Below, in pieces: positions 22,282-61,349 of a stretch of DNA of 64,000 nucleotides. Each line of letters opens with the position of its first letter. The first letter of the stretch is position 1. This DNA comes from an uncultured Planctomycetia bacterium (GTDB taxonomy: Bacteria; 4484-113; JAGGVC01), in contig CAYMAI010000004.1 in the NCBI GenBank assembly GCA_964388445.1, forward strand, positions 80,127-144,126, given 5' to 3'. Below the pieces are notes generated by a model. That model was not told the DNA's origin. It searched no databases and saw only the letters and a list, made by a program, of their open reading frames with translations. The position numbers and the translations under genes are program-made.

Positions 22282-22293
22282 TTTCTACCGCCG

Positions 22294-23919: not shown

Positions 23920-23954
23920 ATCCGTTATCCCCCTTGTAAGGATTAAACAGAACA

Positions 23955-28006: not shown

Positions 28007-28136
28007 AACTCCTCCGCAATTACCATAAATGGGAAGCGCCCTAAAGAGCGTTTCCCGATTTTAAAATCCCAAAATATTACCTCATAAGGCGTAATCCGCA
28101 ACATAATTGCCGCGTTTTTGCCGATTCGCGGCGCTT

Positions 28137-36339: not shown

Positions 36340-36500
36340 TATTAGGGGCTACGGGGAGCCGCCAAAGTCATTTCGCAATTTGCAGGCTTGAAGCCTGCGC
36401 TACGGCGGCGGACGCAATATGCAAGCCAGAATCGTGCAATGCGGCGGCGGACGCAATATGCAGGCTAGAAGCCTGCGCTACGGCGGAATATTCTGCAATT
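36340..36500. repeat. REP-like palindromic repeat units (BIME-like)
   Basis: Hairpins GCAGGCTTGAAGCCTGCGCTACGG and GCAGGCTAGAAGCCTGCGCTACGG. The unit CGGCGGCGGACGCAATATGCA occurs twice. Related to the repeats flanking the RAYT gene at 59 kb. Confidence 0.45.
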
Positions 36501-36601
36501 TTTTCACTTGCGCGCCCTGCGCCCCGGTTTCCCGCCGCGCTCTGTTATCATTTCCGGCGGGTTCGTTAACCGGACGATTTCATTCAAGAGGTGGCAATGT
36601 T

Positions 36602-37994: not shown

Positions 37995-40952
37995 CTACGC
38001 TCCCGCCTGGGCTTGAGCTTCCTGTAAAAGACTGTCGAAATAGGATTTGGCCTCGGCTTCGATGCCTTCGGGAAGCGGGAAAAACGAACGGAGCTCCGGC
38101 GACTTTTCGGCCACCGCGAACGCCTGCGGGTTCATCTGTTTCACTTTCCAAAGCATAATTTGGCCGAGTTTCCTCTCGTTCGTATAAATCGTGAGATAGG
38201 CGAAGTTGAGAGGGAAGATGTGGTCGGCCGGGAAATTGACGAGGCACGCGCGGAAGTTGTCCGCCGCCTGCCTGTATTCCTTCAAGGGAACGAGCGCGAG
38301 GACGCGGTTTTGCCACGCCAGCCTGTGCTTGGGCTCGATTTTGATTACTTCGTCGTAGCAGTCGATGGCCTTTGCGTATTGCTCGAGCTTTGCGAGAATC
38401 GTGCCTTTGTTGAGCCATGCCTTGAGGTGGTCGGCCTTGAGCTTGATCGTGCGCTCGTAAAACTCGATGGCTTTAAGGTAGTCTTCGAGATTGTCCAAAG
38501 AAAGCGCCCAGTTGAAATAGACTTCAGGATTTCTAAGCTCCGACTTGACGATGCGCTCGAAACAGTCGATGGCGTCGTGATAGCGGCCGAGGTTGTTATA
38601 GGCGATGCCGAGGTCGAGCCAAACTTCGAGAGAGAGCGGGTTTAATTCGAGGCTCTTGAGATACGCCTCGGACTCTTTTTGCCACATCGCTTTTTTATCT
38701 TCAAGGGCGGCTTTCTCGTCGCTGAGCGAGCGGTAGGCGTGGCCGAGTTCGTACCAAGCCTTGTAGTCCTCCGGATTTCGTTCGATGAACTTTTCGAGCG
38801 ATTGGATTTCCTCTTGGAAGCGTTTGAGCTCGTGAAGCAGCCGGCTTTTCATATAGAAGCCGAGGTCGTATTCTTCTTCAAGCTTGATGCAGGTGTTGAA
38901 GTCCGTAAGCGCTCTTTCGAGGTCGCCCAGCTTCCAGTGGACGCGGGCGCGGTTGTAATAGACTTTCGCTTCGTCGGGCTTGCCGCCGATAAACTTGTCG
39001 AACAGGTCGAGCGACTTCGGCATGTTGCCCACGAAGAAATGGGCGAGACCGAGGTTGTTCCACGCGTAAATGTCGTTCGGATAGTGTTCCAGATAGTAAT
39101 CGTAGTTTTCGATGGCCTCTTCCCAGTGGCGCGTGTTGACGAGCGCGCAGCCGCGGTTATAAAGGATGTCCACTTCGGGTTTGAGCTCGTAAGCTTTTTC
39201 GATGTATTCGAGCGCGCGATTGTTCTGGCCGACTTTGCCGAGGATGATGCCGCTGTTGTACCAGGCATAGCTGTGCTTGGCGCTCGATTCGTACGCATTC
39301 TGGAAACAGCTTAGTGCGTCCAAAATGAAACCTTCCTCGTAATACATGATTCCGAGGTTGTACCAGCTTTCCGCGTGCCGCTTGTATTTCGCGATGCAGT
39401 CTTTATAGCCTTCACGCTCTTTCTCGCGGTCGCCGAGATAGTGAAATGCGAGGGCGGCGTTGTAGAACATATAGTCTTCGGGGTTTTTGAATTCCGCCGC
39501 TTTCGTCCAGCATTCGATTTCCGCATCGTGTTTTCCGCCGCGGTTGTTGCTTAGCGCCAGAAGAAGCCACGTTGCACGGTTTTTGGGATTTAGCTCCAGC
39601 GCCTGCTTGAGCGCCTTGACGGATTCGTCGTATTTTTCGAGCTGGAAAAAGCCCCAGCCTTTGCCGAAAAACGCGTTTTCGCAGCGGGGGAAGCGCTTCA
39701 AGACTTCGTCGAGCTTGCCGAGCGCTGTTTCGGCGTTGCCGCGTTTAAGGTCGTTGAACGCGTTTATGAGCATCCGCTGTTCGAAATCTTTCTGCTCGCG
39801 CTCGCGGTCGGGTTTTTTCTTGAACAGGTCGCGAAAGCCCGATTTATTCATTTCGAGAATTTCGTTGAAATCGCTTATGAGGAAGCCTTCGTCGATAAGC
39901 TCGCGGTCCACGAAGTCCACGACTTTCGGCAAGACGAATCCCGAGCGCGGCTTGAGGTCGGTGTAGGGGCTGTGGTTGAAGAAGCTGAATGTGTATTTCA
40001 TCTCCTCTTCGATCAGCGGAAGGGAGAGCTTTTTGCCGAGCGCTTCGAAAAACGCGTCGGACGAAGATATTTCGAAAATCCTGAAATCCTTGCCGGCCGA
40101 GCGCGCCTTAACGAAAAGCTGCATCAATTGGACGGGCGGGCGTTTCACGCTGTCTTTGAACGCCCAGATAAGCCCCTTGTTCAAGACTTCCGGGTCTTCT
40201 TCGACGAGTTCCATTATCGTGTTCATCACACCGTACTCGAGGCCGCCGTAGCCGATGACGAGAAGCCCGGAGCCCCGCAGCGACTCGCGCAGCTTGGCTT
40301 TCATTTCGTCATGCAGCTTGCCCATTCCTTCGCGAAGATAGGTGACGTTGTAATTTTCGACCGAGCCGTGCACTTTCAAAACGTAATGCCGGTTGTCGTC
40401 TTTGATTTCGGGAAGATGCTCGACGTCCTTGATTGTGATGCAGGTTACGCCGCGAAGCAGATAGAAAGCGTCTTCGAGAAGCGTATCCCAGTTTGTCGTG
40501 TAAATAAGCGGATTAATTTTGCCGAACTTGACCGCGAGTGCGAGCAGGAAGTGGCCGGGGGACGGGTCCTTGCCTTTCAGAAGCTTCGAAAAGTATTCCT
40601 TGCGAAGCGTGTTGGCCGGATATTCCTTTTCCAGACAGGAAATATACGCATAGTCCTTGTTGAACCACTTTTCTTTGCCAAGCCAGTCCGCGATGTCTTC
40701 CGCCTTGACCATGCCGCGGCGGGCGGGGTGCATTTTCTCGTAAACGATAACGCTAATCTCGTCCACGATTTCCTGGCTTACCGGCATGCCCGCGCTCTGG
40801 CTTACGCCCGCGCCGACAAAGAACTGCCATTCCTTGCCGTTGGCCGCAATCCGCTCCAAAGCTTCTTCTTCGCTGATGAACGACTCCTCGAAGACCTGCT
40901 TCGGGTCAAGCTCCATCAGCTCTTTTTCCTTCTGGCGGCGAATCTCGATCAT
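37995..40952 (-). CDS. SIR2-domain (SIR2_2-like) / TPR-repeat fusion protein, DSR-like candidate antiphage NADase
   Basis: ATG with GGAGG RBS. N-terminal domain has FFVGAGVSQSAGMP, GHFLLALAV, IYTTNWDTLLEDAF and LKVHGSV, the SIR2 signature including catalytic N and H. It is followed by about 600 aa of canonical TPR repeats. The gene has lower GC than its flanks. Confidence 0.8.
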   Translation of the reverse strand: MIEIRRQKEKELMELDPKQVFEESFISEEEALERIAANGKEWQFFVGAGVSQSAGMPVSQEIVDEISVIVYEKMHPARRGMVKAEDIADWLGKEKWFNKDYAYISCLEKEYPANTLRKEYFSKLLKGKDPSPGHFLLALAVKFGKINPLIYTTNWDTLLEDAFYLLRGVTCITIKDVEHLPEIKDDNRHYVLKVHGSVENYNVTYLREGMGKLHDEMKAKLRESLRGSGLLVIGYGGLEYGVMNTIMELVEEDPEVLNKGLIWAFKDSVKRPPVQLMQLFVKARSAGKDFRIFEISSSDAFFEALGKKLSLPLIEEEMKYTFSFFNHSPYTDLKPRSGFVLPKVVDFVDRELIDEGFLISDFNEILEMNKSGFRDLFKKKPDREREQKDFEQRMLINAFNDLKRGNAETALGKLDEVLKRFPRCENAFFGKGWGFFQLEKYDESVKALKQALELNPKNRATWLLLALSNNRGGKHDAEIECWTKAAEFKNPEDYMFYNAALAFHYLGDREKEREGYKDCIAKYKRHAESWYNLGIMYYEEGFILDALSCFQNAYESSAKHSYAWYNSGIILGKVGQNNRALEYIEKAYELKPEVDILYNRGCALVNTRHWEEAIENYDYYLEHYPNDIYAWNNLGLAHFFVGNMPKSLDLFDKFIGGKPDEAKVYYNRARVHWKLGDLERALTDFNTCIKLEEEYDLGFYMKSRLLHELKRFQEEIQSLEKFIERNPEDYKAWYELGHAYRSLSDEKAALEDKKAMWQKESEAYLKSLELNPLSLEVWLDLGIAYNNLGRYHDAIDCFERIVKSELRNPEVYFNWALSLDNLEDYLKAIEFYERTIKLKADHLKAWLNKGTILAKLEQYAKAIDCYDEVIKIEPKHRLAWQNRVLALVPLKEYRQAADNFRACLVNFPADHIFPLNFAYLTIYTNERKLGQIMLWKVKQMNPQAFAVAEKSPELRSFFPLPEGIEAEAKSYFDSLLQEAQAQAGA

Positions 40953-41251
40953 CTGACCCTCCGAAAATATCTTTCCCCAACCACCTTGTCCGTAAGATAC
41001 GCCGAGACTATTCCTCACGAACACGCGGCTTTTCCGTCGAGGCCACTTTCCGCCAAGCAACGCGTGGCGGCGATACCCGAGCGGGGTAAAGCCGGATTAT
41101 AACACAGCGAAACCCTTCAAAATCAATCCCTTGCGCCAAAAAAAGCAAGAACGAGATTGCGCTTCGCGGCACTTAACCTTCGCGGACGGTTTTTGGCGAA
41201 ATCGGCGGCTTTTCGGGATATAATCCGCGCTTTCAATTTTCGGAGCTATTC

Positions 41252-47751: not shown

Positions 47752-47779
47752 TTGAAAAATCTACGCAGTAATGTATAAT
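47752..47779 (+). promoter_or_regulatory. near-consensus sigma70-type promoter TTGAAA-16-TATAAT
   Basis: Located about 90 nt upstream of the ATG at 47866. Confidence 0.35.
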
Positions 47780-47865: not shown

Positions 47866-50262
47866 ATGAACGTGAGGAGAGGGCTTTGGCTCATTCTTGT
47901 CCCCCTCGTCATCGTCGCGTTCGCCTGTAGCAACGGCTCGATGCAATCGCCCAGCGTCAGCGGCGATCCGCCGTCCGGATTCAAACTGGACGGGGTTCGC
48001 GGCGCCGCCGCGCTTCCGCTCAGCCTTGCAGTCAGCGAAACGGCGCCGGGCTTCGAGGTAAGCGTCGAACTTGCATCCCCGGTCGCGACGGACGACGTGT
48101 ATTTCAAAATTTGTTACGACGCGAGCAAGGTGAATCCCGCCGGCGTAGAATTTCATGGCGCGCTCGGCGAAAGCATAGACCTTGCGATAACCACGATACC
48201 GGGCGAAGTCGCCGCCGGCACGAGCCGGATTCGCGAAATAGGCGATTCCCCGGCAATGATTTCGGGTCTTATCGCTACGCTGAAGTTCGAGAACCGTCCC
48301 TGCACTATCGAACGTTCGGCGAGCGGTTTAGCCCCGATAAATCAGGAAAACAAAGTTGACGACCTGACCGCGCTCGTGGCCGGCGGCCAAGCGACGCTGA
48401 CGTGGACCGAGAAAAACCTCGGAGATTACGACAACAGCGGCGAAGTCGGCATCCCGGACATCACGCCTATCGCGCTGAACTATCTGCGCACAGCCGGTAC
48501 GATTCTGGAGCTGGTTGACGGCGACAAGAGCGGCGAAATCGGCATTTCGGACATCACGCCAATCGCGCTGAATTACGGCAACTACGTGGAAGGTTATCGC
48601 GTGAACACGCGGCGCGGCGGCTCGTGGACGAAAATCGATTGCGAAGCCAATCCCGCATCGCCTTACACGGTTACCCGACCGGCCAATCCGCCGTCGGACA
48701 GGCGCTGTACATACGAGTTTATGTATACGCTGGGCGCGGAAGACGAAGAAAACTTCACGGTTCAGCCAACCGGCCCGGACGGCAGCGCGGGAATCATTTC
48801 GAACACGACCGGCGGTGGCGGGCTTGACATTCCGCCGCCTCCGAGAATCGAAGACCTTACGGCGCGCGGCGGCCCCGACCTCGGGGACGGCGTAATCGAG
48901 CTTACATGGACCGCGCCGGACGACCCGTATCTGGACAGATACAACGTCTGGTGGGAAAAAGGCGGCGACGGCACGAACCTCGTTCCTTACAATCCGAACC
49001 TCACGCCGACCGCGACGAGCCTGCTCGTAACCGGCTGCGAACCCGGAGCGACCTATCATTTCCGGATTTGGGGCACGAACTTCAACGAGTACGGCCAGCG
49101 TCAGGACGCTCCGGCGAGCAACCTTGCATCCGCAATGGCGTTTTCGCCCGCGGGAATCCCGGTGATAAGCGACCTTTCGATTCTTAGCGACGCTTCGACC
49201 GGCAACGGCAACATCAAGCTGATGTGGACGATTCCGAGCGACCCGTACCTGCACCATTTCGAAATTTTGTGGCAGCAGGGCGGAGACGGCGGCAGCCTGA
49301 CCACGCTCGACAACAACGTTTCGCCGACCGCGAACGAGTATATGGTCACGGGATGCGCGCAGGGGCCGAGATTTTTCTTCAAAATCAAGTGCGCCTACGA
49401 CGGATTCCTGGGCCAAGCGTCGAACATGGTTTCGAGCACGGCATATCCCACCCCGAACATCCCGCCGCTTTCGATAACGTCCGTCACGCGCAACCGCACG
49501 ACGTTTATGCCGGGCGACGCGATTAACCTCAGCGTTAACACGAACCTCGACGCGGAATACGCAAGCGACCTTCGCTATGAATGGACGGTCGCGAGCGGCC
49601 CGGGCAACATCACTGGCGGCGCCTCCGCGAAGAACGCCACCGGCGCGGTGACCGCGAAAGGCACGGTAACGTTCCAAGTTCGCGTGACCGTGAACGGAAC
49701 ACCGGGAGCGGACTACGACAAGACCGCGACAGTAATGGCGATTGGAACAACCTTAGCTCCTGCAATTCAGGTTGCCGGCGTAACGAATCCAAAATTCGTT
49801 TTTACCGGGTGGAATTACTTCGCCGGAAGAAACGAAAACATAGATGATTACTACACGCGAGAACATGTTGTAGGAATTTCGCTATGGGCTACTTGGTGAG
49901 GCGCGTGCGTCTCGGAGTTTCCGAGATTGCAAAACCTTTATGACAGATTGACTGCCGAAGGCGAAGATTACTACTACATAACTTTAGATTGCCAATACGG
50001 TTCTGACACGCAAGCGGTTCACGATGCTTTCCTCAATGTAAACGGTTATGACTACACTGCAGCCTTCTTTACCAATGAAAGCGGAGTTTCCGCGGCTTAC
50101 ATGGGAATCTGCGGCGATTTTGGTTTTTCACCGAACTACCTTCCAACAAATTTCATAATGGATCGCGACGGATGCATTCGCGCAGGGCAAAATACGGTTC
50201 CGGATCCGATTACCGCTTGGGAAAATAAGATTCGAGAGCTTTTGGGTGTTAATTTCGAATAA
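47866..50262 (+). CDS. candidate selenoprotein: cohesin/dockerin-like surface lipoprotein with C-terminal TlpA-type thioredoxin-fold domain (UxxC), UGA recoded at 49897-49899
   Basis: The ORF track splits this into 47833..49899 and 49927..50262, which are in the same frame. The in-frame TGA aligns with the first Cys of WCGPC in the paralog at 52803 (W-U-G-A-C versus W-C-G-P-C). Homology continues for about 110 aa after the TGA. A hairpin follows the TGA. Confidence 0.6.
49910..49926 (+). promoter_or_regulatory. candidate bacterial SECIS upper stem-loop (TCTCGGA-GTT-TCCGAGA)
   Basis: Perfect 7-bp stem with a GUU apical loop. 17 nt long, beginning 11 nt after the in-frame UGA. Confidence 0.4.
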
Positions 50263-50281: not shown

Positions 50282-50310
50282 AGGCCGCGCCTTTCGGCGC
50301 GGCCTTTCTT
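50282..50310. terminator. bidirectional rho-independent terminator (GGCCGCGCC-TTTC-GGCGCGGCC + T-rich)
   Basis: GC-rich 10-bp stem. T-rich on both strands. Sits between convergent genes. Confidence 0.45.
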
Positions 50311-50315
50311 AAATT

Positions 50316-52454
50316 CTAAAACTGGCTATTGTGTGAATCCACAATCCATGAATACCAGCTTCCTTTTTGGCGTGGAACAATTCCGTACTTATTTGCTCTA
50401 ACTAGGTAATTGAGGCCGAATGACTCAAAGAGGTAATGGGAGCCGTATTTAGAATATGGGGAAACACTGAAGTTTGAACGATAATACAGAAATGCCATTG
50501 GCAAATCTTCGGGGTCCTTTGCGGGAATCGCCCAATAAGACTCCCAATGAAGTCGTCCCGCACCACGACCTGTACCGTCAAAAGAAGATATATCCAGCAA
50601 TTTGATTTGGCTTAAAGCAGAAGCTATGCGAGCAGTTTCCCTGTTTTCCGTCAGATAAAGCACTACCCCAGAGTCCTCACATTCGACATACCAACGCTCG
50701 TAGCCCATCCCAACCGGTGCTTGCCAATCATGCCGGTGGTTTACAACCTTCGAGCGCATTTCCATCAAATTCGTGCGCGTGTTCAAAATCCAGTAATTTA
50801 TGTCGAACAATGCAAAATCTGCTGTCTCCATTGTGCTAACGTACTTGTTTCGAGAAGATAATGTTGGATGAAGAAACTGCACCTCATATTCCAAGACAGG
50901 CGGCAACGGGGGATAGAAAACGGGCGAGTTTTCGACGACATCTAGTTCAAGCGGTTCCCCTATTTCCGGATTCCAAGCCCACACTACCGCCCCGGGATCA
51001 TCTCCATCTAATTGTTTCCATCTAAAAGCAAAGAAAACTCGACTTACCTTCCTGTCCGTAGGCTTAATGTTGTATCCCGGGTAATATGGGCCTTCTCCAA
51101 CAAAATAAGTGTTTTCAATCCAAGTGATTCCTAGGTTGGTTTCCCAGACATTGTCATCTCGCTCAATGAGCAAATCTGCTGTGCGCTCAAATTCGCAGTA
51201 CAGGCCTGTCCATTGTTCGTGTTCGTTGTTGACGGCGACAATTTCTGGACTGTCCCAGCTTCCGTTGGATTGCTGTAACACAACGCGCAGTGAATCAAGC
51301 CTATCATCTTGATTTATCGCGTCTCGTTCAATCCAGTGGAATGCAACCCCTCGCATATAATCACCCTCATCCGAAAAGTGCTCTACGTCTATACCATCCC
51401 CTATGATAGCGGGCAAGTAAAATGTATTGCTTGTCACGGGCCAAAATCTAGAATTTGTGGGGCTGTATGCTGAATCTCCCCACGTCTCCAAATACACTTC
51501 GCCTGTTTGGTCGTCCCAAGCAACTTCATATTGCCCACAAAAAATCCTTGGACCGCTTGCCATTTGGTAATTGTTTACCGAAGTCGCAAGACTGAATCTT
51601 GTGGTTTCTCCATCATAATCAGGTGTCAGTCCAATTTCAGGAGAAATGTTTAAAAGATATGTTTGCTCGGACGGCCAATCAGCTGCGCTTGCGGCCAATA
51701 CGCCAAAAACCTTAAACTCATAGTTTTCAACCTCAGGGTCTGGATTGAAATGCCCAATAGCAACACACAACACTGGATTAACGGGTCCATATTGAGGAAC
51801 CACCTGATTAAAGGCCTGTGCGCCGTAAAATGAAATGACAACTATCGGCCGCGTGTTTACGAATGGCTCCTCATTAATTTCATACTCATCATAAGTGGGT
51901 GCAACATAGGTAATTGCGATTGGGCCATGCGCACGGTATTCGTGAGCGGTTTCGGGGTAATGCCAACCCCCTGCAGAGCTTTTGTAGCTCAATGGTACAA
52001 AGTTGCCTTCAACCACCGCAGTCGATTTAGACCAAGTCATTTCATCAGGAAGCCATTCTTGAAAGAGAATTTTTGGCGTTTCAGGATACTCCCTGTAGTC
52101 AGCACCTTGTTCATCAACATCAAACGGTCCATCTTCCCAGAGAACCGCACTTCCGACCCTATTATCGCCTATTTCCTCATCATAATAGTGGTCTGCGACT
52201 GACATTACGATTTGAGCGTTGTCAATATCATCAATTTCGTGCTCGCTCAAATACTCACTTACGTAACCCGGCTCTGGCCAAACCTGGCCCGGCCAAGTGT
52301 TGTTAGGAATGATGTGCTGAGACTCCGAATCCTCAGACGCTCCCACAACTGGCACTTTCCCCACATCAACGGAACCCTTTTTCTTGCCGGAGCAAGAAAC
52401 GACAACTACAAAAAGCGCAAGTGCGCAAACGAAGAACAACAAAATTCTACCCAT
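50316..52454 (-). CDS. hypothetical surface lipoprotein encoded in AT-rich insertion
   Basis: GGAGGG RBS. Lipobox (VVSC). 712 aa. GC is about 45%, against about 62% in the flanks. No recognizable domain. Confidence 0.55.
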   Translation of the reverse strand: MGRILLFFVCALALFVVVVSCSGKKKGSVDVGKVPVVGASEDSESQHIIPNNTWPGQVWPEPGYVSEYLSEHEIDDIDNAQIVMSVADHYYDEEIGDNRVGSAVLWEDGPFDVDEQGADYREYPETPKILFQEWLPDEMTWSKSTAVVEGNFVPLSYKSSAGGWHYPETAHEYRAHGPIAITYVAPTYDEYEINEEPFVNTRPIVVISFYGAQAFNQVVPQYGPVNPVLCVAIGHFNPDPEVENYEFKVFGVLAASAADWPSEQTYLLNISPEIGLTPDYDGETTRFSLATSVNNYQMASGPRIFCGQYEVAWDDQTGEVYLETWGDSAYSPTNSRFWPVTSNTFYLPAIIGDGIDVEHFSDEGDYMRGVAFHWIERDAINQDDRLDSLRVVLQQSNGSWDSPEIVAVNNEHEQWTGLYCEFERTADLLIERDDNVWETNLGITWIENTYFVGEGPYYPGYNIKPTDRKVSRVFFAFRWKQLDGDDPGAVVWAWNPEIGEPLELDVVENSPVFYPPLPPVLEYEVQFLHPTLSSRNKYVSTMETADFALFDINYWILNTRTNLMEMRSKVVNHRHDWQAPVGMGYERWYVECEDSGVVLYLTENRETARIASALSQIKLLDISSFDGTGRGAGRLHWESYWAIPAKDPEDLPMAFLYYRSNFSVSPYSKYGSHYLFESFGLNYLVRANKYGIVPRQKGSWYSWIVDSHNSQF

Positions 52455-52517
52455 AACAACCCTCCGAACTTTTAGTAAAATGCGCCAAGGATTTTCAATG
52501 GCACACAGCGATTTTAC

Positions 52518-52532
52518 AAAAAAAAAAAAAAA
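52518..52532. repeat. homopolymeric A15/T15 tract in the promoter region of the 50316..52454 lipoprotein gene
   Basis: 15 consecutive A on the plus strand, about 65-80 nt upstream of the minus-strand ATG. Confidence 0.6.
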
Positions 52533-52802
52533 GGAAAATTCAAGCTTCCACACCTTGTTATAGAAATAACAAGCTTTCCGTGCTATGAATTCCAAACAAC
52601 AAAACACTTTGAAACAGCCATCCTGGCACCTTGCGCTTTACAAGTCGCCGTAACATTTGTTAAATATTGTAAAATCCGCCCGAAAAGCCTCTTTTTGCTT
52701 GCGTAACTATTCACATAATATCCTATCGATGTGATATAATATCGGCGCCGGGCAGGCCGCGCCGTTGCGCAGTCAATCCCAATTCATCCCGGCATTGGGG
52801 AG

Positions 52803-55205
52803 TTGATGAACGTGAAGAGAGGATTATTCGGATTTATTCTGCTTCTACTAATCTTCGCCGCAATCGCTTGCGGCAAGAACTCGGCGCCCACGCACGCTCC
52901 GCAGGCTGAAAAATCGTCCGGTTTCGAGCTGGACGGCGTGCGCGGAACGGCCTCGCTTCCGCTAAGCCTTGCGGTCGGCGACACCGCGCCGGGATATGAA
53001 ATAAGCGTCGAGCTTGCGGCTGAAACCGAGGCGAACGACGTTTTCTTCAAGGTCAAGTACGACCCGGCGGCGGTCAGCCCCGCGGGCGTGGATTTCCACG
53101 GCGCGCTGGGCGAAAGCATTGACCTTGCGATTACCTCGGTGCCCGGCGAAGTGGCGGTAGGCACAAGCCGCATTCGCGAAGCGGGCGACGGGCCGGTAAG
53201 GATTTCGGGCGTCATCGCGACCTTGAGGTTCGAAAACGGCGCGTTCGGCGTGGAGCGCCGGGTCAGCGGGCTTGCGCCGGTGAACTCCGACAACAAAGTG
53301 ACCGACCTTATCGCGACCACGGTTGGCGATCAGGTTACGCTTAATTGGACGGAGAAAAACCTCGGCGATTACGACAACAGCGGCGAGGTCGGCATTCCGG
53401 ACATCACGCCTATCGCGCTTAACTATCTCAAGACTACCGGCACGGTTCTCGAACTCGTGGACGGCGACAAGAGCGGCGAAATCGGCATATCCGATATAAC
53501 GCCCATCGCTCTGAATTACGGAAACGCGATTGCGGGCTACCGCATCAACAGCCGGCGCGACGGAAGCTGGGTCAAAATCGACAGTCCGTCGAACCCCGGC
53601 TCGGCGTACACCGTAAGCCGTCCGTCCGCGCCTCCGCAGGACAGCCTTGTTCGCTACGAGTTCGTTTACACGCTCGAAGCGGGCGACGAGGAGAACTTCC
53701 AGACGCAGCCGGTCGGCCCGGACAACAGCACGGGCATCGTATCGAACGCGACGGCGGGCGGCGGAATTTCGATTCCCGCGCCTCCGAGGATTGAAGACCT
53801 TACGGCTCGCGGCGGCCCCGATTTGGGCGACGGCGTAATCGAGCTTTCTTGGACGACGCCGGACGACCCGCACCTAGACCGCCAGAACGTATGGTGGGAG
53901 AAGGGCGGCGACGGCTCGAACCTCATTCCTTACAATCAGAACGTACCGCCTACCGCGAACAGCCTGCTCATTTCGGGCTGCGAGCCGGGCGAGACCTATC
54001 ACTTCCGGGTGTGGGGCACGAACTTCAACGAATACGGCCAGCGTCAGGACGCGCCGGCAAGCAACCTTGCATCGGCTTTGGCGTTCTCGCCGGCGGGCAT
54101 TCCCGTAATTAACGACCTGTCCGTACTTAGCGACGTCACGACCGGCAACGGAAACATCAAGCTTATGTGGACGGTTCCTAGCGACCCGTATCTGCACCAC
54201 TTCGAAATCCTCTGGCAGGAAGGCGGCGACGGCAGCAATATGACGGTGCTCGACGGAAACGTTTCGCCGACCGCTAGCGAATTCATGGTGACCGGATGCT
54301 CGGAAGGACCGAGGTATTTCTTCAAGATTAAGGCGGCTTACGACGGATTCGTGGGACAGCCCTCGAACATGGTTTCGAGCACGGCGTTCCCGACACCGAA
54401 CATTCCGCCGCTTTCGATTACTTCGGTGACGCGCAACCGCACGACGTTTTCGCCCGGCGACGCGATTAACCTTGGAGTGGCTACCAATCTCGATGCGGAG
54501 TTCGCAAGCGACCTCGTGTACGAATGGACCGTGGCGAGCGGACCCGGAAACATCACGGGCGGCGCGTCCAGCAAAAACGCGACCGCGGGCGTGACCGCGA
54601 AAGGCACCGTGACGTTCCAAGTTCGCGTGACCGTGAACGGCGCGCCGGGCGCGGAATATGACAAGACCGCGACAGTGAAAGTCATCGGCACGACGCTCGG
54701 CCCGGCGATTAAAGTCATCGACACGACAAGCCCGGCGTTTCTTTTTAACGGCTGGAACTTCTTCGCGCAGGCGAACGAAGACGTCAACGACTACTACAAT
54801 CAGCAGCATGTCGTAATGCTCAATATGTGGGCGACTTGGTGCGGCCCGTGCCTTGCCGAGTTCCCGCGTATTTACGATATGAACCAAAGGCTGACGGCGG
54901 AAGGCGAAGACTTCTTCCTCGTGACGCTCGACTTCCAGTTCGGCTCGGACACTAAGGTGGCGCATGACAACTGGCTGACGAACAGCGGTTATCAGTATGC
55001 GGCGGCGTTCTTCGAGAACAACAGTGCGGCGGCGAACGCGTATATGGGAATGTGCAGCAGCTACGGCTTCTCGCCTGGCTACATTCCGACCAACTTCCTT
55101 ATGGACCGCGACGGTTACGTAAGGGCCGGTCAGAACGCAGTTCCCGACCCGATTACAGGTTGGGAAAACAAGGTTCGCGAACTTCTGGGAGACGACTTCG
55201 AGTAA
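52803..55205 (+). CDS. cohesin/dockerin-like surface lipoprotein with C-terminal TlpA-like thioredoxin domain (WCGPC), Cys paralog of the 47866 gene
   Basis: Lipobox (IAAC). Twin dockerin-like segments DYDNSGEVGIPDITPIALNYL and DGDKSGEIGISDITPIALNYG. C-terminal WATWCGPC thioredoxin active site. Confidence 0.75.
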   Translation: MMNVKRGLFGFILLLLIFAAIACGKNSAPTHAPQAEKSSGFELDGVRGTASLPLSLAVGDTAPGYEISVELAAETEANDVFFKVKYDPAAVSPAGVDFHGALGESIDLAITSVPGEVAVGTSRIREAGDGPVRISGVIATLRFENGAFGVERRVSGLAPVNSDNKVTDLIATTVGDQVTLNWTEKNLGDYDNSGEVGIPDITPIALNYLKTTGTVLELVDGDKSGEIGISDITPIALNYGNAIAGYRINSRRDGSWVKIDSPSNPGSAYTVSRPSAPPQDSLVRYEFVYTLEAGDEENFQTQPVGPDNSTGIVSNATAGGGISIPAPPRIEDLTARGGPDLGDGVIELSWTTPDDPHLDRQNVWWEKGGDGSNLIPYNQNVPPTANSLLISGCEPGETYHFRVWGTNFNEYGQRQDAPASNLASALAFSPAGIPVINDLSVLSDVTTGNGNIKLMWTVPSDPYLHHFEILWQEGGDGSNMTVLDGNVSPTASEFMVTGCSEGPRYFFKIKAAYDGFVGQPSNMVSSTAFPTPNIPPLSITSVTRNRTTFSPGDAINLGVATNLDAEFASDLVYEWTVASGPGNITGGASSKNATAGVTAKGTVTFQVRVTVNGAPGAEYDKTATVKVIGTTLGPAIKVIDTTSPAFLFNGWNFFAQANEDVNDYYNQQHVVMLNMWATWCGPCLAEFPRIYDMNQRLTAEGEDFFLVTLDFQFGSDTKVAHDNWLTNSGYQYAAAFFENNSAAANAYMGMCSSYGFSPGYIPTNFLMDRDGYVRAGQNAVPDPITGWENKVRELLGDDFE

Positions 55206-57514: not shown

Positions 57515-58699
57515 CTAGTCCCTGTATCTCGGCGGCACGGTTTTGGGATCTATTTTGGTTTCGTCGCCGAATTTGCGGCCGGTGCGCCTAGCCGTCCACC
57601 AGTAGCCGCCTTCGATCGCGGCCGGCAGCGCGTCGCCGGCGCGAGCCGCGATGTATTGCGCACGGCGAAGCTCGAGCGATTCGAGCTTAATCAAATATTC
57701 CTCCGCTGCGAGCGACGAGGGCGTGGCGGCTTCGGCAAGCCCGCCGTCTTGGGCATAGAGATAATCCGCCATCTGGCGCAGCATTTCGCCGTACATAAAC
57801 GCGACGAGTTCGTGGCGGCGGGCGTTCGGCAAGCGGTTTTTACGGTCGGTTTCCGGGTCGCTGCCGCTGAAAATCAAATTTATCCAATCGGTCTTGACTT
57901 CGCCCGTACGCGTGAGCGCGGACGCCCACCGGTGCGCAAGAGCGCTTTTGAACCACGACGCCGCGCTTTCGGGCGTATGCTTTTCGGCGGATACAATAAT
58001 TTCGACTTCGAGCGGGATATCCATCGCGATTCCGCCGGAGCGGGTTTTCGCGACCAGCGAGCCGGTCATCGAAACTTCGCCGGGCGCGGCGGACGGGCCG
58101 ATGAGGAACAGCGCGGACGCCGTGACGAATTCCTTGCCGCCGGATTTCACGAGCGTCATATCGGCAAGCTCGGCGGAGACGCCGGGGACGGGCGGGCGAA
58201 GGACGAGAGACATCGACGCGGTTTCGGCGGGGAATTCCTTGGCGAAGTGCGCGTATATCAACCTGCCTTGCGGGACGGGGGTTTCCGTGCGCACGAGAAG
58301 CGCGCCGGTTTCGGAATCGGTTTCGCGCACGGCGATCGACAAAAACGAGCGAGTGGCGCCGGGCTTTTCGCCGGGGGTTTCGATGTTCGGCGTGTCAGAG
58401 AGCTTGACGAGTTCCTCGACGGATTTGTCGAGAACGCGAGTCCAGCGGGGGAGCGGCGCGAGCTCGAGAATTTGAATGAAGGCGTTCACGTCCTTCGCGG
58501 CGCGTGCGCCCTCGAACCGGGCGTCCCAGTCCACGCTCTCCGGGTCGCTCAGCGCGGACGCGGCGGGCGCGGGGCCTTGCGCGAACGCGGGCGCGGGAAT
58601 CGCCGCAACGAGCGCAAGCGCGAAAATCGCGGCGGAAATCAGGGCGCCGGCCGGCAGCGAAATCGCGGCGGAAATCGAAAGCGAAAATGAAGGTTTCAT
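57515..58699 (-). CDS. hypothetical secreted protein
   Basis: Hydrophobic N-terminus. No family call. Confidence 0.4.
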   Translation of the reverse strand: MKPSFSLSISAAISLPAGALISAAIFALALVAAIPAPAFAQGPAPAASALSDPESVDWDARFEGARAAKDVNAFIQILELAPLPRWTRVLDKSVEELVKLSDTPNIETPGEKPGATRSFLSIAVRETDSETGALLVRTETPVPQGRLIYAHFAKEFPAETASMSLVLRPPVPGVSAELADMTLVKSGGKEFVTASALFLIGPSAAPGEVSMTGSLVAKTRSGGIAMDIPLEVEIIVSAEKHTPESAASWFKSALAHRWASALTRTGEVKTDWINLIFSGSDPETDRKNRLPNARRHELVAFMYGEMLRQMADYLYAQDGGLAEAATPSSLAAEEYLIKLESLELRRAQYIAARAGDALPAAIEGGYWWTARRTGRKFGDETKIDPKTVPPRYRD

Positions 58700-58785: not shown

Positions 58786-59030
58786 TATAACCGCTTTCCG
58801 CACGTAGCGCAGGCATCCTGCCTGCATGTGCAAATTGCCGACCGAATTCGACGGCGCGCTATTACGTGCTTAGCATAATGCAGCCTGGAAGGCTGCGCTA
58901 CGATTATAGCTTCAATTCGCGCGCAGCGCAGGCATCCTGCCTGCATGTGCAAATTGCCGACCGAATTCGACGGCGCATTTTTGCATATTTGACATAATGC
59001 GGCCTAGAAGTCCGCGCAAGGAATAGCGTT
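58786..59030. repeat. tandem ~119-bp REP/BIME-like repeats (left flank of RAYT)
   Basis: Unit contains hairpins GCAGCCTGGAAGGCTGC and GCAGGCATCCTGCCTGC. About two copies here. Confidence 0.7.
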
Positions 59031-59592
59031 ACTCTCGTTTCCACACCCAAGGCCATTTAGTCAAGCCAGCTTTAGCAGGGTTGTCCATGACGTAAGCAAT
59101 TGTTTTGTAAAACTCGTCTTCGTCGCGGATAATCCGGTCAAAGGTTTCCTTCTGCCAAAATGCTCCGGCTAATCCAAGTTCCGCATTGGCCTGATTCGCG
59201 GAATATGACTTCCACGAATGAAGTATCTTGGCCAGCGTGTGTGGTGGAAGCGGTCTAAAAACTGTATGAACGTGGTTTGGCATTATGCAATAAGCATAAA
59301 GATCGTATCTTTCATCTTTAAAATACAGCAGGGCTGTTTTTACGATTTTTGCGATTTCAGGATTGGACAAATGAGGGGTTCCGAAGCCGGAATCCAAAAG
59401 CCGGTCTATTTTCATAATTTCTTCAAATTCAATTTCCGATTCACAACCCCGGACGTTTTTCATTTCAGTCCGAAGCTGCTCCAAGGCTTCTTTGGGCAGC
59501 GAACCCGCCAGCCGGAATGTGACAAAGTAAGTGGCGCCGTCCAATTCCCAATGCGGCAGATAACCTCTACTTCGTTTTTTAATGATTGCCAT
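59029..59592 (-). CDS. REP-associated tyrosine transposase (RAYT, IS200/IS605-like Y1 transposase)
   Basis: Motifs GYLPHWE, YFVTFR and CIMPNHVHTVF (HuH and Y1). Flanked on both sides by REP hairpin repeats. Confidence 0.8.
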   Translation of the reverse strand: MAIIKKRSRGYLPHWELDGATYFVTFRLAGSLPKEALEQLRTEMKNVRGCESEIEFEEIMKIDRLLDSGFGTPHLSNPEIAKIVKTALLYFKDERYDLYAYCIMPNHVHTVFRPLPPHTLAKILHSWKSYSANQANAELGLAGAFWQKETFDRIIRDEDEFYKTIAYVMDNPAKAGLTKWPWVWKRE

Positions 59593-59804: not shown

Positions 59805-61349
59805 ATGGCGTACGTTGACGGCGTGATGGACAAGCTTGCGAGCCTGTGCAAGCGGCGCGGGTTCATCTTTCAATCGAGCGAGATTTACGGCGGGTTCGGC
59901 GGGTTCTGGAACTACGGCCCGCTCGGCTGCGAGCTGATGGCGAACGTGCGCGCATTTTGGTGGCGGCGGATGGTGCGCGAGCGCCGGGACGTCGCCGGCC
60001 TCGATTCGAGCATAATCAGCAACCCCGAAGTGTGGGTCGCGAGCGGCCACGTGGGCCATTTCAACGACATTCTCGTGGACGACAAGAATACGAAAGAACG
60101 GTTTCGAATCGACCAGCTCAAGTATAAGAACGACGAAGACGCGAAGAAAGCGGAAGAGCTGGCGAAGGAATTCGATGGTGAAAAAGGAATTTCGTATTGG
60201 GACGCTTTGAAAGAAGTTATCGGGTATTTTCCGCTTAATCCCAATACCGGAAAGGAGTCGAGGTTCACCGAGCCGTCGCAGTTCAACTTGATGCTGCAGA
60301 CGAACATCGGCGCGAAATCCGACAAGTCGAGCGTCGCGTACCTGCGCGCCGAAACTTGCCAGCCGATTTTCGTGGACTTCGAGCAAATTCGCATAAGCTC
60401 GCGCCAGAAGCCGCCGTTCGGCGTGGCGCAAGTGGGCAAAGCGTTCAGAAACGAAATAAATCCGCGCAACTTCACTTTCAGAAGCCGCGAGTTCAGCCAG
60501 ATGGAAATGGAGTTTTTCGTGCCGCCGGACGAAGTGGTCGAAAAGGCGCGCATCGAAGGCGACCGGACCGAAATGGAATGGTTCGAGTATTGGAAGGAAG
60601 AGCGGCGCAAATATTACGAGGCGCTGGGGCTTTGGGACGGCGTGCGGATGCGGCTGCGCGACCATGCGGCGGGCGAGCTTGCGCATTACGCAAAGGCGGC
60701 GTGCGACTTCGAGTTCGAGTTTCCGTTCGGGTGGGCGGAATTGGAGGGCGTGCATCATCGCGGCGACTTCGACCTGCGCCAGCATCAGGCGCACAGCAAA
60801 AAAAGCCTCGAATATCACGACCCGGACAGGGGCGGCGCGAAATATCTGCCGGCTTGCATCGAAACGTCGGTTGGGCTCGACCGCACGGTGCTGGCGCTTC
60901 TTTGCGCGGCGTACGGCGAGGACTTGCAGGCCACGAAGAAGGAAGGCGCGGACGAGGACGTGCGCGTGGTTTTAAGGTTGCCGCATTTTATCGCGCCGGT
61001 GCAGGTGGCGGTTTTGCCGCTGTCGAAAAAACTGAACGATTATGCCGACAAGCTTGAGCGCGATTTGTCGGGACATTTCGCGACAGAGTTCGACGTGACC
61101 GGAAGCATCGGGAAAAGGTATCGCCGGCAGGACGAAATCGGCACGCCGTTTTGCGTGACGGTGGATTTCGAGACGCTCGAAGGCGCGCGGGAAGTCGGCG
61201 AGAGCGCGGGCGCGGCGGTGCCCGTCGAAGGCGGACTTGCGGACATCAAAGACACGGTGACGGTGCGCGAGCGCGACACGCTTGCGCAAGTGCGGGTGCA
61301 CGTGGACCGGCTGGCGGAGTGGATTAGGGATAGGTTATCGAAGGAATGA
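59805..61349 (+). CDS. glyQS: glycine--tRNA ligase (alpha2 dimeric type)
   Basis: Class II aaRS motifs. FQSSEIYGG...WNYGPLG N-terminus is typical of GlyQS. Confidence 0.9.
   Translation: MAYVDGVMDKLASLCKRRGFIFQSSEIYGGFGGFWNYGPLGCELMANVRAFWWRRMVRERRDVAGLDSSIISNPEVWVASGHVGHFNDILVDDKNTKERFRIDQLKYKNDEDAKKAEELAKEFDGEKGISYWDALKEVIGYFPLNPNTGKESRFTEPSQFNLMLQTNIGAKSDKSSVAYLRAETCQPIFVDFEQIRISSRQKPPFGVAQVGKAFRNEINPRNFTFRSREFSQMEMEFFVPPDEVVEKARIEGDRTEMEWFEYWKEERRKYYEALGLWDGVRMRLRDHAAGELAHYAKAACDFEFEFPFGWAELEGVHHRGDFDLRQHQAHSKKSLEYHDPDRGGAKYLPACIETSVGLDRTVLALLCAAYGEDLQATKKEGADEDVRVVLRLPHFIAPVQVAVLPLSKKLNDYADKLERDLSGHFATEFDVTGSIGKRYRRQDEIGTPFCVTVDFETLEGAREVGESAGAAVPVEGGLADIKDTVTVRERDTLAQVRVHVDRLAEWIRDRLSKE

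What the first reader, a model, noticed from the sequence alone, without database searches (positions are those of the whole stretch)
49880..49930. In-frame UGA replaces the first Cys of a WCxxC thioredoxin motif and is followed by a SECIS-like hairpin: probable new multidomain selenoprotein
The lipoprotein gene at 47866..50262 has a TGA at 49897-49899. In the neighbouring paralog (52803..55205) the aligned codon is TGC, the first Cys of WATWCGPC. The reading frame stays open and homologous for about 110 more codons through the rest of the TlpA-like domain (RLTAEGEDYYYITLD...FIMDRDGCIRAG). Seventeen nucleotides, TCTCGGAGTTTCCGAGA, form a perfect 7-bp stem with a GUU loop starting 11 nt after the UGA. 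This matches the length and spacing rules for bacterial SECIS minimal upper stem-loops. A Sec/Cys paralog pair in one locus is the classic selenoprotein signature. A UxxC extracytoplasmic thiol-disulfide oxidoreductase fused to a ~690-aa cohesin/dockerin-like surface module has not, to my knowledge, been described.
Basis: partly seen in the sequence, partly recalled or inferred. Interest (0 to 1): 0.85.

Follow-up and report, generated by a model that had tools for sequence, protein, structure and literature searches.

The report
Selenocysteine in a surface thiol-disulfide oxidoreductase
A large lipoprotein gene in an uncultured bacterium almost certainly reads an in-frame UGA as selenocysteine at the active site of its TlpA/ResA-like redox domain; this is a convincing but fairly ordinary new member of a known class of selenoproteins, and gene callers have cut it short.

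Summary
The gene at 47866..50262 (+) has TGA at 49897-49899, in the column where its paralog (52806..55205) and all generic TlpA/ResA homologs carry the first Cys of WxxWCxxC. The frame stays open for 120 more codons and ends at a conserved ELLGxxFE terminus.

The pseudogene test fails. Five further lineages also carry TGA in this column: L008, L010, L011, L096 and L099, with redox domains 31-56% identical to the window's. Each has a conserved downstream frame with pN about 0.3-0.5 against saturated pS.

A stem-loop follows the UGA and meets all four criteria of the published bacterial SECIS model. It keeps its pairing through compensatory changes: 7 pairs and 16 cells, covariation 0.41 against 0.16 in shuffles. 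The Cys paralogs encode the same E-F-P residues but lack the structure.

TGA is an ordinary stop elsewhere in the window. No selA, selB, selC or selD gene could be found or excluded, because only about 71 kb of the genome was readable.

UxxC TlpA-like selenoproteins are already catalogued. What is new is the architecture: the domain sits at the C-terminus of an ~800-aa lipoprotein with a cohesin-like domain, FN3 and PKD domains. The lineage is also new. Verdict: new member of a known kind, of moderate interest.

The parts
47752..47779 (+). Sigma-70-like promoter candidate (TTGAAA-16-TATAAT), about 87 nt upstream of the start codon
   Evidence: Consensus scan, 11 of 12 matches. This is a consensus match only, with no evidence of function.
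47866..50262 (+). Full selenoprotein gene, 798 codons including the UGA. Public gene calls stop at 49899 and give a 677-aa product.
   Evidence: Translation. The truncated product P0001 maps to 47866-49896. The read-through frame is conserved in orthologs.
47866..47931 (+). Signal peptide with a lipobox-like end (MNVRRGLWLILVPLVIVAFA-C). Cys21 is at 47926-47928.
   Evidence: Read from the sequence. Cys21 is at least 90% conserved in the 15-sequence alignment A7. No signal-peptide predictor was available, so lipidation is inferred.
47983..48300 (+). Cohesin-like beta-sandwich domain (about aa 40-145)
   Evidence: AlphaFold model with pLDDT around 80-90 over this stretch. Foldseek top PDB matches are cohesins: 2w1n E=1e-6, and 6kgf, 2jh2 and 5nrm with probability 1.0 and target-normalised TM 0.45-0.54. 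No Pfam Cohesin hit.
48421..48576 (+). Two EF-hand/dockerin-like repeats (GDYDNSGEVGIPDITPIALNY and VDGDKSGEIGISDITPIALNY)
   Evidence: This is the most conserved part of the module, with invariant D/G/T/I/A columns in A5 and A7. In the model each repeat is a loop followed by a helix. The only Pfam hit is EF-hand_1 at E=0.15, and there is no Dockerin hit.
48853..49455 (+). Two fibronectin type III domains (about aa 330-530)
   Evidence: Pfam fn3 at E=3.9e-11 for this protein. The paralog has two stretches at E=4.7e-12. PDB fibronectin matches cover profile positions 337-551.
49558..49740 (+). PKD/Ig-like domain (about aa 565-625)
   Evidence: By homology to the paralog, which has a K319L-like_PKD hit at E=5.5e-4, below the Pfam cutoff. 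Weak evidence.
49837..50259 (+). C-terminal TlpA/ResA/CcmG-like thioredoxin-fold domain with the active site U678-G-A-C681
   Evidence: Pfam AhpC-TSA scores 29.9 bits against a cutoff of 26. PDB ResA 4nmu, TlpA 1jfu and DsbE/CcmG all match. In the residue-level alignment U falls on the first Cys of WATWCGPC in 2lja and WGTWCKPC in ResA.
49897..49899 (+). In-frame UGA, proposed to encode selenocysteine
   Evidence: It aligns with Cys in the paralogs and in 55 generic TlpA homologs. TGA sits in the same column in L008, L010, L011, L096 and L099.
49906..49908 (+). TGC codon for the resolving Cys of the UxxC motif
   Evidence: This column is invariant in all Sec and Cys forms.
49899..49939 (+). 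Bacterial SECIS-like stem-loop. The upper stem-loop is 49910-49926 with apical loop GUU. A lower helix extends the structure to 49899 and 49939.
   Evidence: RNAalifold predicts 15 pairs. Pair counts on six sequences give 85.6% paired, 7 pairs with compensatory change, and 0 of 500 shuffles reaching the observed covariation. A covariance model hits only the Sec genes and none of the Cys paralogs.
50260..50262 (+). True stop codon (TAA)
   Evidence: The C-terminus ELLGxxFE is conserved in all forms.
50282..50305 (.). 10-bp GC-rich hairpin between the convergent genes, probably a shared terminator
   Evidence: The terminator scan scored it on the minus strand. The plus-strand copy is followed by TTCTTAAATT. 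No terminator-like site lies near the UGA.
52806..55205 (+). Cys-containing paralog (799 aa, WATWCGPC; TGC at 54840-54842)
   Evidence: The site has no SECIS-like fold, z about 0, and no covariance-model hit.

Best explanation
The gene at 47866..50262 encodes a 798-residue exported selenoprotein, probably lipid-anchored.

Decoding. When the ribosome reaches UGA 49897-49899, the stem-loop just downstream (49899-49939, apical loop GUU) acts as a bacterial SECIS. It recruits SelB-GTP-Sec-tRNA(Sec), selenocysteine is inserted, and translation continues for 120 codons to TAA 50260. This step is inferred from sequence signatures and has not been shown.

Catalysis. Sec678 takes the place of the nucleophilic N-terminal Cys in the U-x-x-C-x-x-E-F-P active site of a TlpA/ResA/CcmG-type thioredoxin-fold domain. 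This much is shown by alignment. By analogy with that family, the selenolate attacks a substrate disulfide and Cys681 resolves the mixed selenylsulfide. The resulting Se-S bond is then re-reduced by a membrane electron shuttle that has not been identified.

Placement. The redox domain is the C-terminal cargo of a lineage-specific display module: signal peptide with conserved Cys, a cohesin-like domain, two EF-hand-like repeats, two FN3 domains and a PKD-like domain. It therefore probably works in the cell envelope or on the cell surface.

The neighbouring Cys paralog is a selenium-independent sister enzyme.
For: 1. UGA aligns with the catalytic Cys of the paralog and of 55 generic TlpA homologs, which all read W-A-T-W-C-x-P-C.

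2. TGA is kept in the same column in six lineages, with redox domains 31-79% identical to one another: the window, L008, L010, L011, L096 and L099.

3. Downstream of the UGA, Sec orthologs differ at pS 0.75-0.89 and pN 0.32-0.52. Upstream the figures are pS 0.51-0.75 and pN 0.11-0.38. The frame has no indels or stops and ends at a shared ELLGxxFE motif.

4. The stem-loop meets the published bSECIS model (PMC13188914, Fig 2A). The loop is 3 nt, starts with G and is followed by U. In the window and three orthologs the upper stem is 6-8 bp and 17 nt separate the UGA from the loop; L096 and L099 have weaker stems. MFE is -10.4 to -20.0 kcal/mol in the five orthologs folded; L099 was not folded on its own.

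5. Covariation: 85.6% of cells are paired, 7 pairs and 16 cells change on both sides, and the score is 0.413. Shuffles give 0.157 +/- 0.045 (0 of 500 reach the observed value) and slid controls give 0.11-0.19. L096 and L099 were not used to derive the structure.

6. The Cys paralogs encode the same E-F-P residues but use GCC-GAG-TTC-CCG/CCT, which breaks the stem at synonymous sites. They fold at z about 0 and get no covariance-model hit.

7. TGA ends 15 of 46 long ORFs in the window. These include AcrB and DegT, whose Pfam matches run to the C-terminus, so UGA is not globally reassigned.

8. The TGA appears on 20 independently assembled contigs.
Against: No selA, selB, selC (tRNA-Sec) or selD was seen in the 64-kb window or about 7 kb beyond it. 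That is only a small part of the genome, so this neither supports nor refutes the claim.

No direct evidence of selenium incorporation exists.

The hairpin core (GGAGUUUCC) overlaps the conserved E-F-P codons, so part of its conservation reflects protein constraint. The L096 and L011 versions are weaker: a 4-bp GC stem, or z = -1.1.

The covariation rests on only six sequences.

No CcdA/DsbD-type reductant partner was found nearby. No Rfam family matches the element.
Confidence: 0.88

Rival explanations
1. The UGA is read through without selenocysteine. A near-cognate or suppressor tRNA would insert Trp, Cys, Gly or Arg, and the downstream hairpin would act only as a read-through stimulator.
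For: The sequence alone shows that translation must continue past the UGA. It does not show which residue is inserted. No Sec machinery genes were seen.
Against: The UGA sits exactly on the catalytic nucleophile of a CxxC motif. Only Cys or Sec would give an active enzyme there, and a Cys codon is one mutation away, yet six lineages keep TGA. The hairpin meets the specific bSECIS rules: G then U in the loop, and 17-nt spacing. Cys paralogs exist alongside the Sec forms, which is the classic selenoprotein pattern.
Confidence: 0.06
2. The UGA is a genuine stop. The functional product would be the 677-aa surface module, as annotated, and the downstream 120 codons would be an untranslated remnant or a separately expressed fragment.
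For: This is how all public gene calls treat it (P0001, P0003, P0004, P0005). Some callers add a short downstream ORF, for example L011 7927-8187, L014 4083-4397 and P0088.
Against: An untranslated remnant would not stay open, in frame and under purifying selection in six lineages that have diverged to about 30% identity. The stop would split a thioredoxin fold inside its active-site motif. The nearest downstream start lies inside the hairpin. The terminator-like hairpin follows the TAA at 50262, not the UGA.
Confidence: 0.03
3. The organism uses a genetic code in which UGA is a sense codon (table 4 or table 25), or the TGA is a sequencing or assembly artefact.
For: None specific. The organism is an unclassified, uncultured lineage.
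Against: TGA terminates about a third of the long ORFs in the window, at positions that match full-length family profiles. No other gene in the window needs UGA read-through. The same TGA is found on 20 contigs from several runs and in five other lineages.
Confidence: 0.01

Closest known systems
Thiol-disulfide isomerase-like selenoprotein (TlpA-like family cd02966, UxxC) and Prx-like thiol:disulfide oxidoreductase selenoprotein (PF00578, UxxC). Both are predicted prokaryotic selenoprotein families (PMC1088965; PMC13188914 Table 1).
   Same: They share a thioredoxin-fold TlpA/AhpC-TSA-type domain in which Sec replaces the N-terminal Cys of CxxC. Cys homologs are widespread, and a bSECIS lies directly after the UGA.
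   Different: The catalogue lists these families by the redox-domain model alone and mentions no surface module. Here the domain is the last 140 residues of an ~800-aa lipoprotein carrying a cohesin-like domain, EF-hand repeats, FN3 and PKD domains. I could not fetch the catalogued example sequences, so direct orthology was not tested.
ResA / TlpA / CcmG (DsbE) extracytoplasmic thiol-disulfide reductases (PDB 4nmu, 1st9, 1jfu, 2b1k)
   Same: These are the best sequence matches. They share the W-x-x-W-C-x-x-C-x-x-E-F/M-P active-site signature, the cis-Pro segment (LPTNF against LPTSF) and the DRDG strand. They are membrane-tethered and exported.
   Different: Those proteins use Cys, are small (about 140-190 aa) and act in cytochrome c or copper-centre maturation with CcdA/DsbD. 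Here the nucleophile is Sec, all NCBIfam scores are far below the family cutoffs (30 bits against 230 for TlpA, 27 against 170 for ResA), and no cytochrome-maturation or CcdA context was found.
[quoted passage not shown]
   Same: It is a TlpA/ResA-like selenoprotein with Sec after a WAxx motif.
   Different: Its motif is U-G-C (UxC), not U-x-x-C. The model scores 15 bits against a cutoff of 300, so this protein is not a member.
E. coli fdhF-type bacterial SECIS
   Same: A stem-loop lies in the coding sequence directly after the UGA, with a G-U dinucleotide in the apical loop. The upper stem-loop is 17 nt and starts about 11 nt after the UGA. The fdhF figures are from my own knowledge of that system.
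   Different: The primary sequence is different. The loop is 3 nt (GUU) and there is no obvious bulged U on the 5' side. No Rfam model matches.

Membership tests
Bacterial selenoprotein gene (Sec-UGA with bSECIS) | The in-frame UGA aligns with Cys in homologs (a Sec/Cys pair) | tested here: met
   TGA at 49897 aligns with TGC at 54840 in the paralog. It also aligns with Cys in the L008 and L096 paralogs and in 55 generic TlpA homologs.
Bacterial selenoprotein gene (Sec-UGA with bSECIS) | TGA-containing homologs occur in other organisms, with coding sequence conserved downstream | tested here: met
   Five further lineages carry TGA in this column. Downstream pN is 0.32-0.52 against pS 0.75-0.89, and all frames stay open to a shared C-terminus.
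Bacterial selenoprotein gene (Sec-UGA with bSECIS) | A bSECIS that fits the consensus: loop of 3-9 nt, upper stem of 4-16 bp, G in the first two loop positions, 16-37 nt from UGA to loop, MFE <= -7.5 kcal/mol (PMC13188914) | tested here: met
   The loop is GUU, the stem 4-8 bp, the spacing 16-17 nt, and MFE -10.4 to -20.0 in the five orthologs folded; L099 was not folded on its own. Covariation supports the structure. It is absent from the Cys paralogs.
Bacterial selenoprotein gene (Sec-UGA with bSECIS) | The genome encodes selA, selB, selC (tRNA-Sec) and selD | not testable with these tools
   None were found in the window or in about 7 kb beyond it. The rest of the 305-kb contig and of the MAG could not be reached, and the genome is not in the species-representative collection.
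Bacterial selenoprotein gene (Sec-UGA with bSECIS) | Selenium is physically incorporated at the UGA position | not testable with these tools
   This needs 75Se labelling or mass spectrometry.
TlpA/ResA/CcmG-like thioredoxin-fold oxidoreductase (Pfam AhpC-TSA/Redoxin; cd02966) | The domain model matches above the curated threshold | tested here: met
   PF00578 scores 29.9 bits against a cutoff of 26 with U written as C. The paralog scores 38.1. PDB ResA matches at E=4e-12 with the family profile.
TlpA/ResA/CcmG-like thioredoxin-fold oxidoreductase (Pfam AhpC-TSA/Redoxin; cd02966) | A C-x-x-C active site with the following E-x-P, and a cis-Pro segment | tested here: met
   The site reads U-G-A-C-V-S-E-F-P, against C-K-P-C-E-K-E-M-P in ResA 4nmu and C-G-P-C-R-G-E-L-P in 2lja. 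P152 and D-R-D-G are invariant.
TlpA/ResA/CcmG-like thioredoxin-fold oxidoreductase (Pfam AhpC-TSA/Redoxin; cd02966) | Equivalog membership of TlpA, ResA, DsbE or StoA, implying a specific function | tested here: not met
   All NCBIfam scores are 16-30 bits against cutoffs of 123-359. The protein is a family-level relative only.
TlpA/ResA/CcmG-like thioredoxin-fold oxidoreductase (Pfam AhpC-TSA/Redoxin; cd02966) | Extracytoplasmic location and a CcdA/DsbD-type electron donor | tested here: inconclusive
   An N-terminal signal-like sequence with a conserved Cys21 is present, but no predictor was run. No DsbD/CcdA Pfam hit occurs in the window. A cytoplasmic thioredoxin reductase lies at 36419-37567.
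ResA-like WAxxUGC selenoprotein (NF041054) | The model scores above its cutoff and the UGC motif is present | tested here: not met
   The score is 15.2 bits against 300, and the motif is UGAC or UPYC rather than UGC.
Cohesin / dockerin modules | A cohesin fold or family match for residues 40-145 | tested here: inconclusive
   Foldseek's best PDB hits are cohesins, with probability 1.0, E from 1e-6 to 1e-2 and target-normalised TM 0.45-0.54. The model is of moderate quality, pLDDT 69 overall. There is no Pfam Cohesin hit.
Cohesin / dockerin modules | A dockerin family match for the duplicated Ca-binding-like repeats | tested here: not met
   Pfam gives no Dockerin_1 hit even at E up to 10, only EF-hand_1 at E=0.15. 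The resemblance is at motif level: D-x-D-x-S-G-E-V followed by a helix.

The most novel reading that the evidence does not exclude
The cohesin-like domain and the EF-hand/dockerin-like repeats could let these proteins self-assemble into a cell-surface scaffold. The same module heads dozens of PQQ-propeller, PKD and protease proteins in this lineage. If so, the Sec-TlpA domain would be a selenium-dependent redox enzyme displayed on the cell surface as part of a cellulosome-like complex. It would then act on external substrates, such as disulfide-rich polymers, prey envelopes, or metal or selenium species, rather than on periplasmic cytochrome maturation. That would be a new ecological role for selenocysteine.
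Probability: 0.1. Interest if true: 0.75.

Novelty: new member of a known kind. Interest (0 to 1): 0.45.

Why it matters
First, it corrects annotation. Every public gene call for this family is cut at the UGA and loses the catalytic domain.

Second, it shows selenocysteine use in an unclassified, uncultured bacterial lineage. The closest named relatives of its GlyRS are only 51-54% identical.

Third, it extends the known range of selenoprotein architectures to a large, multidomain, probably surface-anchored protein.

Fourth, three genomes carry natural Sec/Cys sister genes side by side, and two diverged redox-domain types both use Sec. This gives a clean system for asking what Sec offers over Cys in extracytoplasmic thiol-disulfide exchange.

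It does not change what is understood about Sec decoding.

Tried and rejected
Species-representative genomes. The scan for the paralog gave only a distant alphaproteobacterial TlpA, so the genome could not be retrieved to look for sel genes.

Metagenome scan with the redox-domain alignment. It failed at first because no conserved stretch was available. The repeat returned only generic TlpA homologs at 22-38% identity, all with Cys. They served only as a control for the motif.

Profile search with six full-length sequences. No new orthologs appeared. The family consists of six protein clusters in that database (four Sec, two Cys); the Sec genes at L096 and L099 came from other routes.

Walking along the 305-kb contig. 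Two look-ups were wasted on ORFs whose called start differs. One look-up gave about 7 kb beyond the window with no sel genes.

Cluster look-ups. None carried organism names.

Scan for other UGA read-through genes in the window, and a covariance-model search for further SECIS copies in 184 kb of related loci. Neither found anything beyond this family.

Rfam. No family matched in the window or at the hairpin.

Conserved neighbours. I considered that 57515-58699 or the gene between the paralogs (50316-52607) might be the CcdA-like partner. Their sequences are not polytopic membrane proteins. The latter is a low-GC insertion that is absent in L008.

An Omnitrophota preprint mentions both selenocysteine and dockerin. 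It proved irrelevant.
Full report
**Observation**

The ORF that starts at ATG 47866 reaches TGA at 49897-49899, within ...SLWATW-TGA-GGC-GCG-TGC..., which reads WATW-U-GAC. The same frame stays open for 120 more codons to TAA at 50260-50262. The paralog at 52806..55205 has TGC in the aligned column, giving WATWCGPC.

The 17-nt hairpin TCTCGGA-GTT-TCCGAGA occupies 49910-49926. Ten nucleotides separate it from the UGA. Taken alone, the 49 nt from the UGA fold at -17.7 kcal/mol (z = -2.6; 3 of 200 shuffles fold as well). That is only suggestive.

The TGA is not an assembly error. The truncated 677-aa product is recorded on 20 contigs from several sequencing runs.

**What the protein is**

With U written as C, Pfam finds fn3 and a C-terminal AhpC-TSA/Redoxin domain above threshold. 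NCBIfam and PDB sequence searches place that domain with TlpA, ResA and DsbE/CcmG. All of those scores are far below the equivalog cutoffs. In the residue-level alignments the U falls on the first, nucleophilic Cys of WATWCGPC in 2lja and WGTWCKPC in ResA 4nmu. The following E-F-P and the LPTNF...DRDG segments are conserved. Fifty-five generic TlpA homologs pulled from metagenomes all carry Cys in this column.

The N-terminus has a signal-peptide-like sequence that ends in a conserved Cys21. An AlphaFold model of residues 1-345 (pLDDT 69 overall, 80-90 in the first beta-domain) finds cohesins as its best PDB matches (2w1n, 6kgf, 2jh2, 5nrm).

The two repeats GDYDNSGEVGIPDITPIALNY and VDGDKSGEIGISDITPIALNY are the most conserved part of the module. 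They have no Dockerin family hit, only EF-hand_1 at E=0.15. This module heads many other proteins of the same lineage, including window ORF 11672-13480.

**The pseudogene test**

A homology search returned three more proteins that end in the same column: P0003 ends in ...FWSYW, P0005 in ...LWASW and P0004 in ...WSTG. Reading the DNA past each called stop gave the same result every time. The stop is TGA, the frame continues, U-x-x-C-V-x-E-F-P follows, and the protein ends at ELLGxxFE/Q.

Two further cases turned up later:
- A gene next to the Cys form P0006 in L096, with TGA at 9310.
- A groundwater contig, L099, with TGA at 124-126. It was found through a 106-aa C-terminal fragment in the representative library.

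That makes six lineages. Their redox domains fall into two types. Type A comprises the window, L010 and L011. Type B comprises L008, L096 and L099. The two types are only 29-35% identical to each other.

Among Sec orthologs the region after the UGA shows pS 0.75-0.89 and pN 0.32-0.52. Upstream of the UGA pS is 0.51-0.75 and pN 0.11-0.38. The downstream region is therefore translated and under purifying selection in all of them.

The loci are syntenic: polysaccharide deacetylase, the Sec gene, a Cys paralog, glyoxalase, GlyRS and deformylase. The Sec/Cys pair recurs in the window, L008 and L096.

**The RNA element**

RNAalifold on four Sec sequences predicted a 15-pair stem-loop running from the A of the UGA to +43. 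Six of those pairs show compensatory change.

The upper stem compares as follows:

| Locus | 5' arm | 3' arm | Change relative to the window |
|---|---|---|---|
| window | UCUCGGA | UCCGAGA | (reference) |
| L008 | UAGCGGA | UCCGCUA | two pairs changed on both sides |
| L010 | UUUCGGA | UCCGAGA | C-G becomes U-G |
| L011 | UUCGGA | UCCGAA | C-G becomes U-A |

I then added L096 and L099, which were not used to derive the structure:
- 85.6% of cells are paired.
- 7 pairs and 16 cells change on both sides.
- The covariation score is 0.413, against 0.157 +/- 0.045 in shuffles (0 of 500 reach it) and 0.11-0.19 when the 3' partners are slid.

The element meets each criterion of the published consensus bSECIS model (PMC13188914 Fig 2A, read). 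The apical loop is GUU, so it is 3 nt with G first and U next. The upper stem is 4-8 bp. Sixteen or 17 nt lie between the UGA and the loop. MFE is -10.4 to -20.0 kcal/mol in the five orthologs folded.

The Cys paralogs are the key control. They encode the same E-F-P residues but with GCC-GAG-TTC-CCG/CCT, which breaks the stem at synonymous positions. They fold no better than shuffles (z about 0). A covariance model built from the six Sec sites does not hit them, even at E up to 10.

One caveat is that part of the stem's conservation comes from the E-F-P codons. Another is that six sequences is a small sample.

**Alternatives**

- Global UGA reassignment is excluded. TGA ends 15 of 46 long ORFs, including AcrB and DegT, whose family matches run to the C-terminus. 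No other gene in the window needs read-through.
- A real stop is hard to reconcile with the downstream conservation and with a thioredoxin fold cut inside its active site. The strong GC hairpin lies after TAA 50262, not after the UGA.
- Non-Sec read-through cannot be excluded from sequence alone. It would, however, leave unexplained why six lineages keep TGA at a catalytic Cys position that is one mutation away from TGC/TGT, and why the hairpin obeys the SECIS rules.

**What could not be tested**

No tRNA, no Rfam family and no SelA, SelB or SelD domain is present in the window or in about 7 kb beyond it. The rest of the genome was out of reach. The organism is an unclassified bacterium. The nearest GlyRS sequences are labelled only '[bacterium]', and the closest named ones (Lentisphaerota/Victivallales) are 51-54% identical.

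**Mechanism, with shown and inferred steps**

Shown:
- UGA sits at the nucleophile position of a TlpA/ResA-type U-x-x-C-x-x-E-F-P site.
- The downstream frame is conserved.
- A SECIS-like element with covariation follows the UGA.
- A Cys sister gene exists alongside.

Inferred:
- SelB-dependent insertion of Sec.
- Sec-pathway export and lipidation at Cys21.
- Selenolate attack on substrate disulfides, resolved by Cys681.
- Re-reduction by an unidentified CcdA/DsbD-like shuttle.
- Display in the envelope or on the surface through the cohesin-like and EF-hand module.

**Comparison with what is known**

The 2026 catalogue of prokaryotic selenoproteins already lists four relevant families (PMC13188914 Table 1):
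- 'Prx-like thiol:disulfide oxidoreductase' (PF00578, UxxC)
[quoted passage not shown] This protein is not a member of that last family, which NCBIfam models as NF041054: it scores 15 bits against a cutoff of 300.

A Sec-for-Cys TlpA-like oxidoreductase is therefore a known kind. I found no description of one fused to a large surface module. The catalogue has no matching architecture, and a full-text search for selenocysteine with dockerin gave nothing relevant.

**Verdict**

This is a well-supported predicted selenoprotein: a new member of a known class, with an unusual multidomain architecture, in a poorly known lineage. Interest is moderate at 0.45. My confidence that UGA 49897 encodes Sec is about 0.88.

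Noticed in passing
window 11672-13480 (+): A 603-aa lipoprotein (P0016) has the same N-terminal module: a cohesin-like domain plus two GDxDNSGEVGIPDITPIALNY-type repeats. The same module heads dozens of PQQ-propeller, PKD and other proteins in related MAGs. It looks like a lineage-specific surface-display or assembly module.
   Followed up: partly
window 50316-52607 (-): A 763-aa ORF, probably a 712-aa lipoprotein starting at an internal Met, has no Pfam or NCBIfam hit. It sits between the Sec gene and its Cys paralog. Its GC is about 46% against 57-62% around it, and it is absent from the same position in L008. It is probably a recent insertion.
   Followed up: partly
L008 6001-8388 compared with window 47866-50262: The N-terminal module is 86% identical, but the C-terminal Sec redox domain is only 31% identical (type B in L008, type A in the window). 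This implies a swap of the redox domain between otherwise orthologous genes. Both types keep the UGA and the SECIS.
   Followed up: partly
P0089 (267 aa, representative library; no locus): A homolog of the type-B redox domain has lost both redox residues, reading ...LLNFGASWDGFSMLDLP.... It is presumably a redox-inactive derivative.
   Followed up: no
L010 7987-8001: This ortholog has WSTG-U-GGC instead of WxxW-U-xxC. The otherwise conserved Trp before the active site is replaced by Gly.
   Followed up: no
window 36419-37567 (+): A thioredoxin-disulfide reductase (TIGR01292, 347 bits against a cutoff of 343). The ORF appears to carry an N-terminal extension of about 70 aa, or its start is called too early. 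It is cytoplasmic, so at most an indirect electron source for the exported enzyme.
   Followed up: no
window 37995-41060 (-): A 1021-aa protein combines a SIR2_2 domain with a long TPR array. The same gene is conserved next to the DegT aminotransferase in L011. It may be a defence or NAD-consuming protein.
   Followed up: no
window 20581-31796 (-): A run of very large secreted proteins carries TIG/IPT and Big_7 domains. It includes an M6 (immune inhibitor A-like) peptidase of 1158 aa and an S8 subtilase of 1219 aa.
   Followed up: no
window 59029-59592 (-) and L011 8281-8820: IS200-like Y1 transposase genes lie near the locus in two lineages. In L011 one sits directly after the Sec gene, where other genomes carry the Cys paralog.
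   Followed up: no
window 59805-61346 (+): From its Pfam domains I first took this class II aminoacyl-tRNA synthetase for ProRS. It is GlyRS according to the names attached to its homologs. Its closest named relatives (Lentisphaerota) are only 51-54% identical, which shows how isolated the lineage is.
   Followed up: yes
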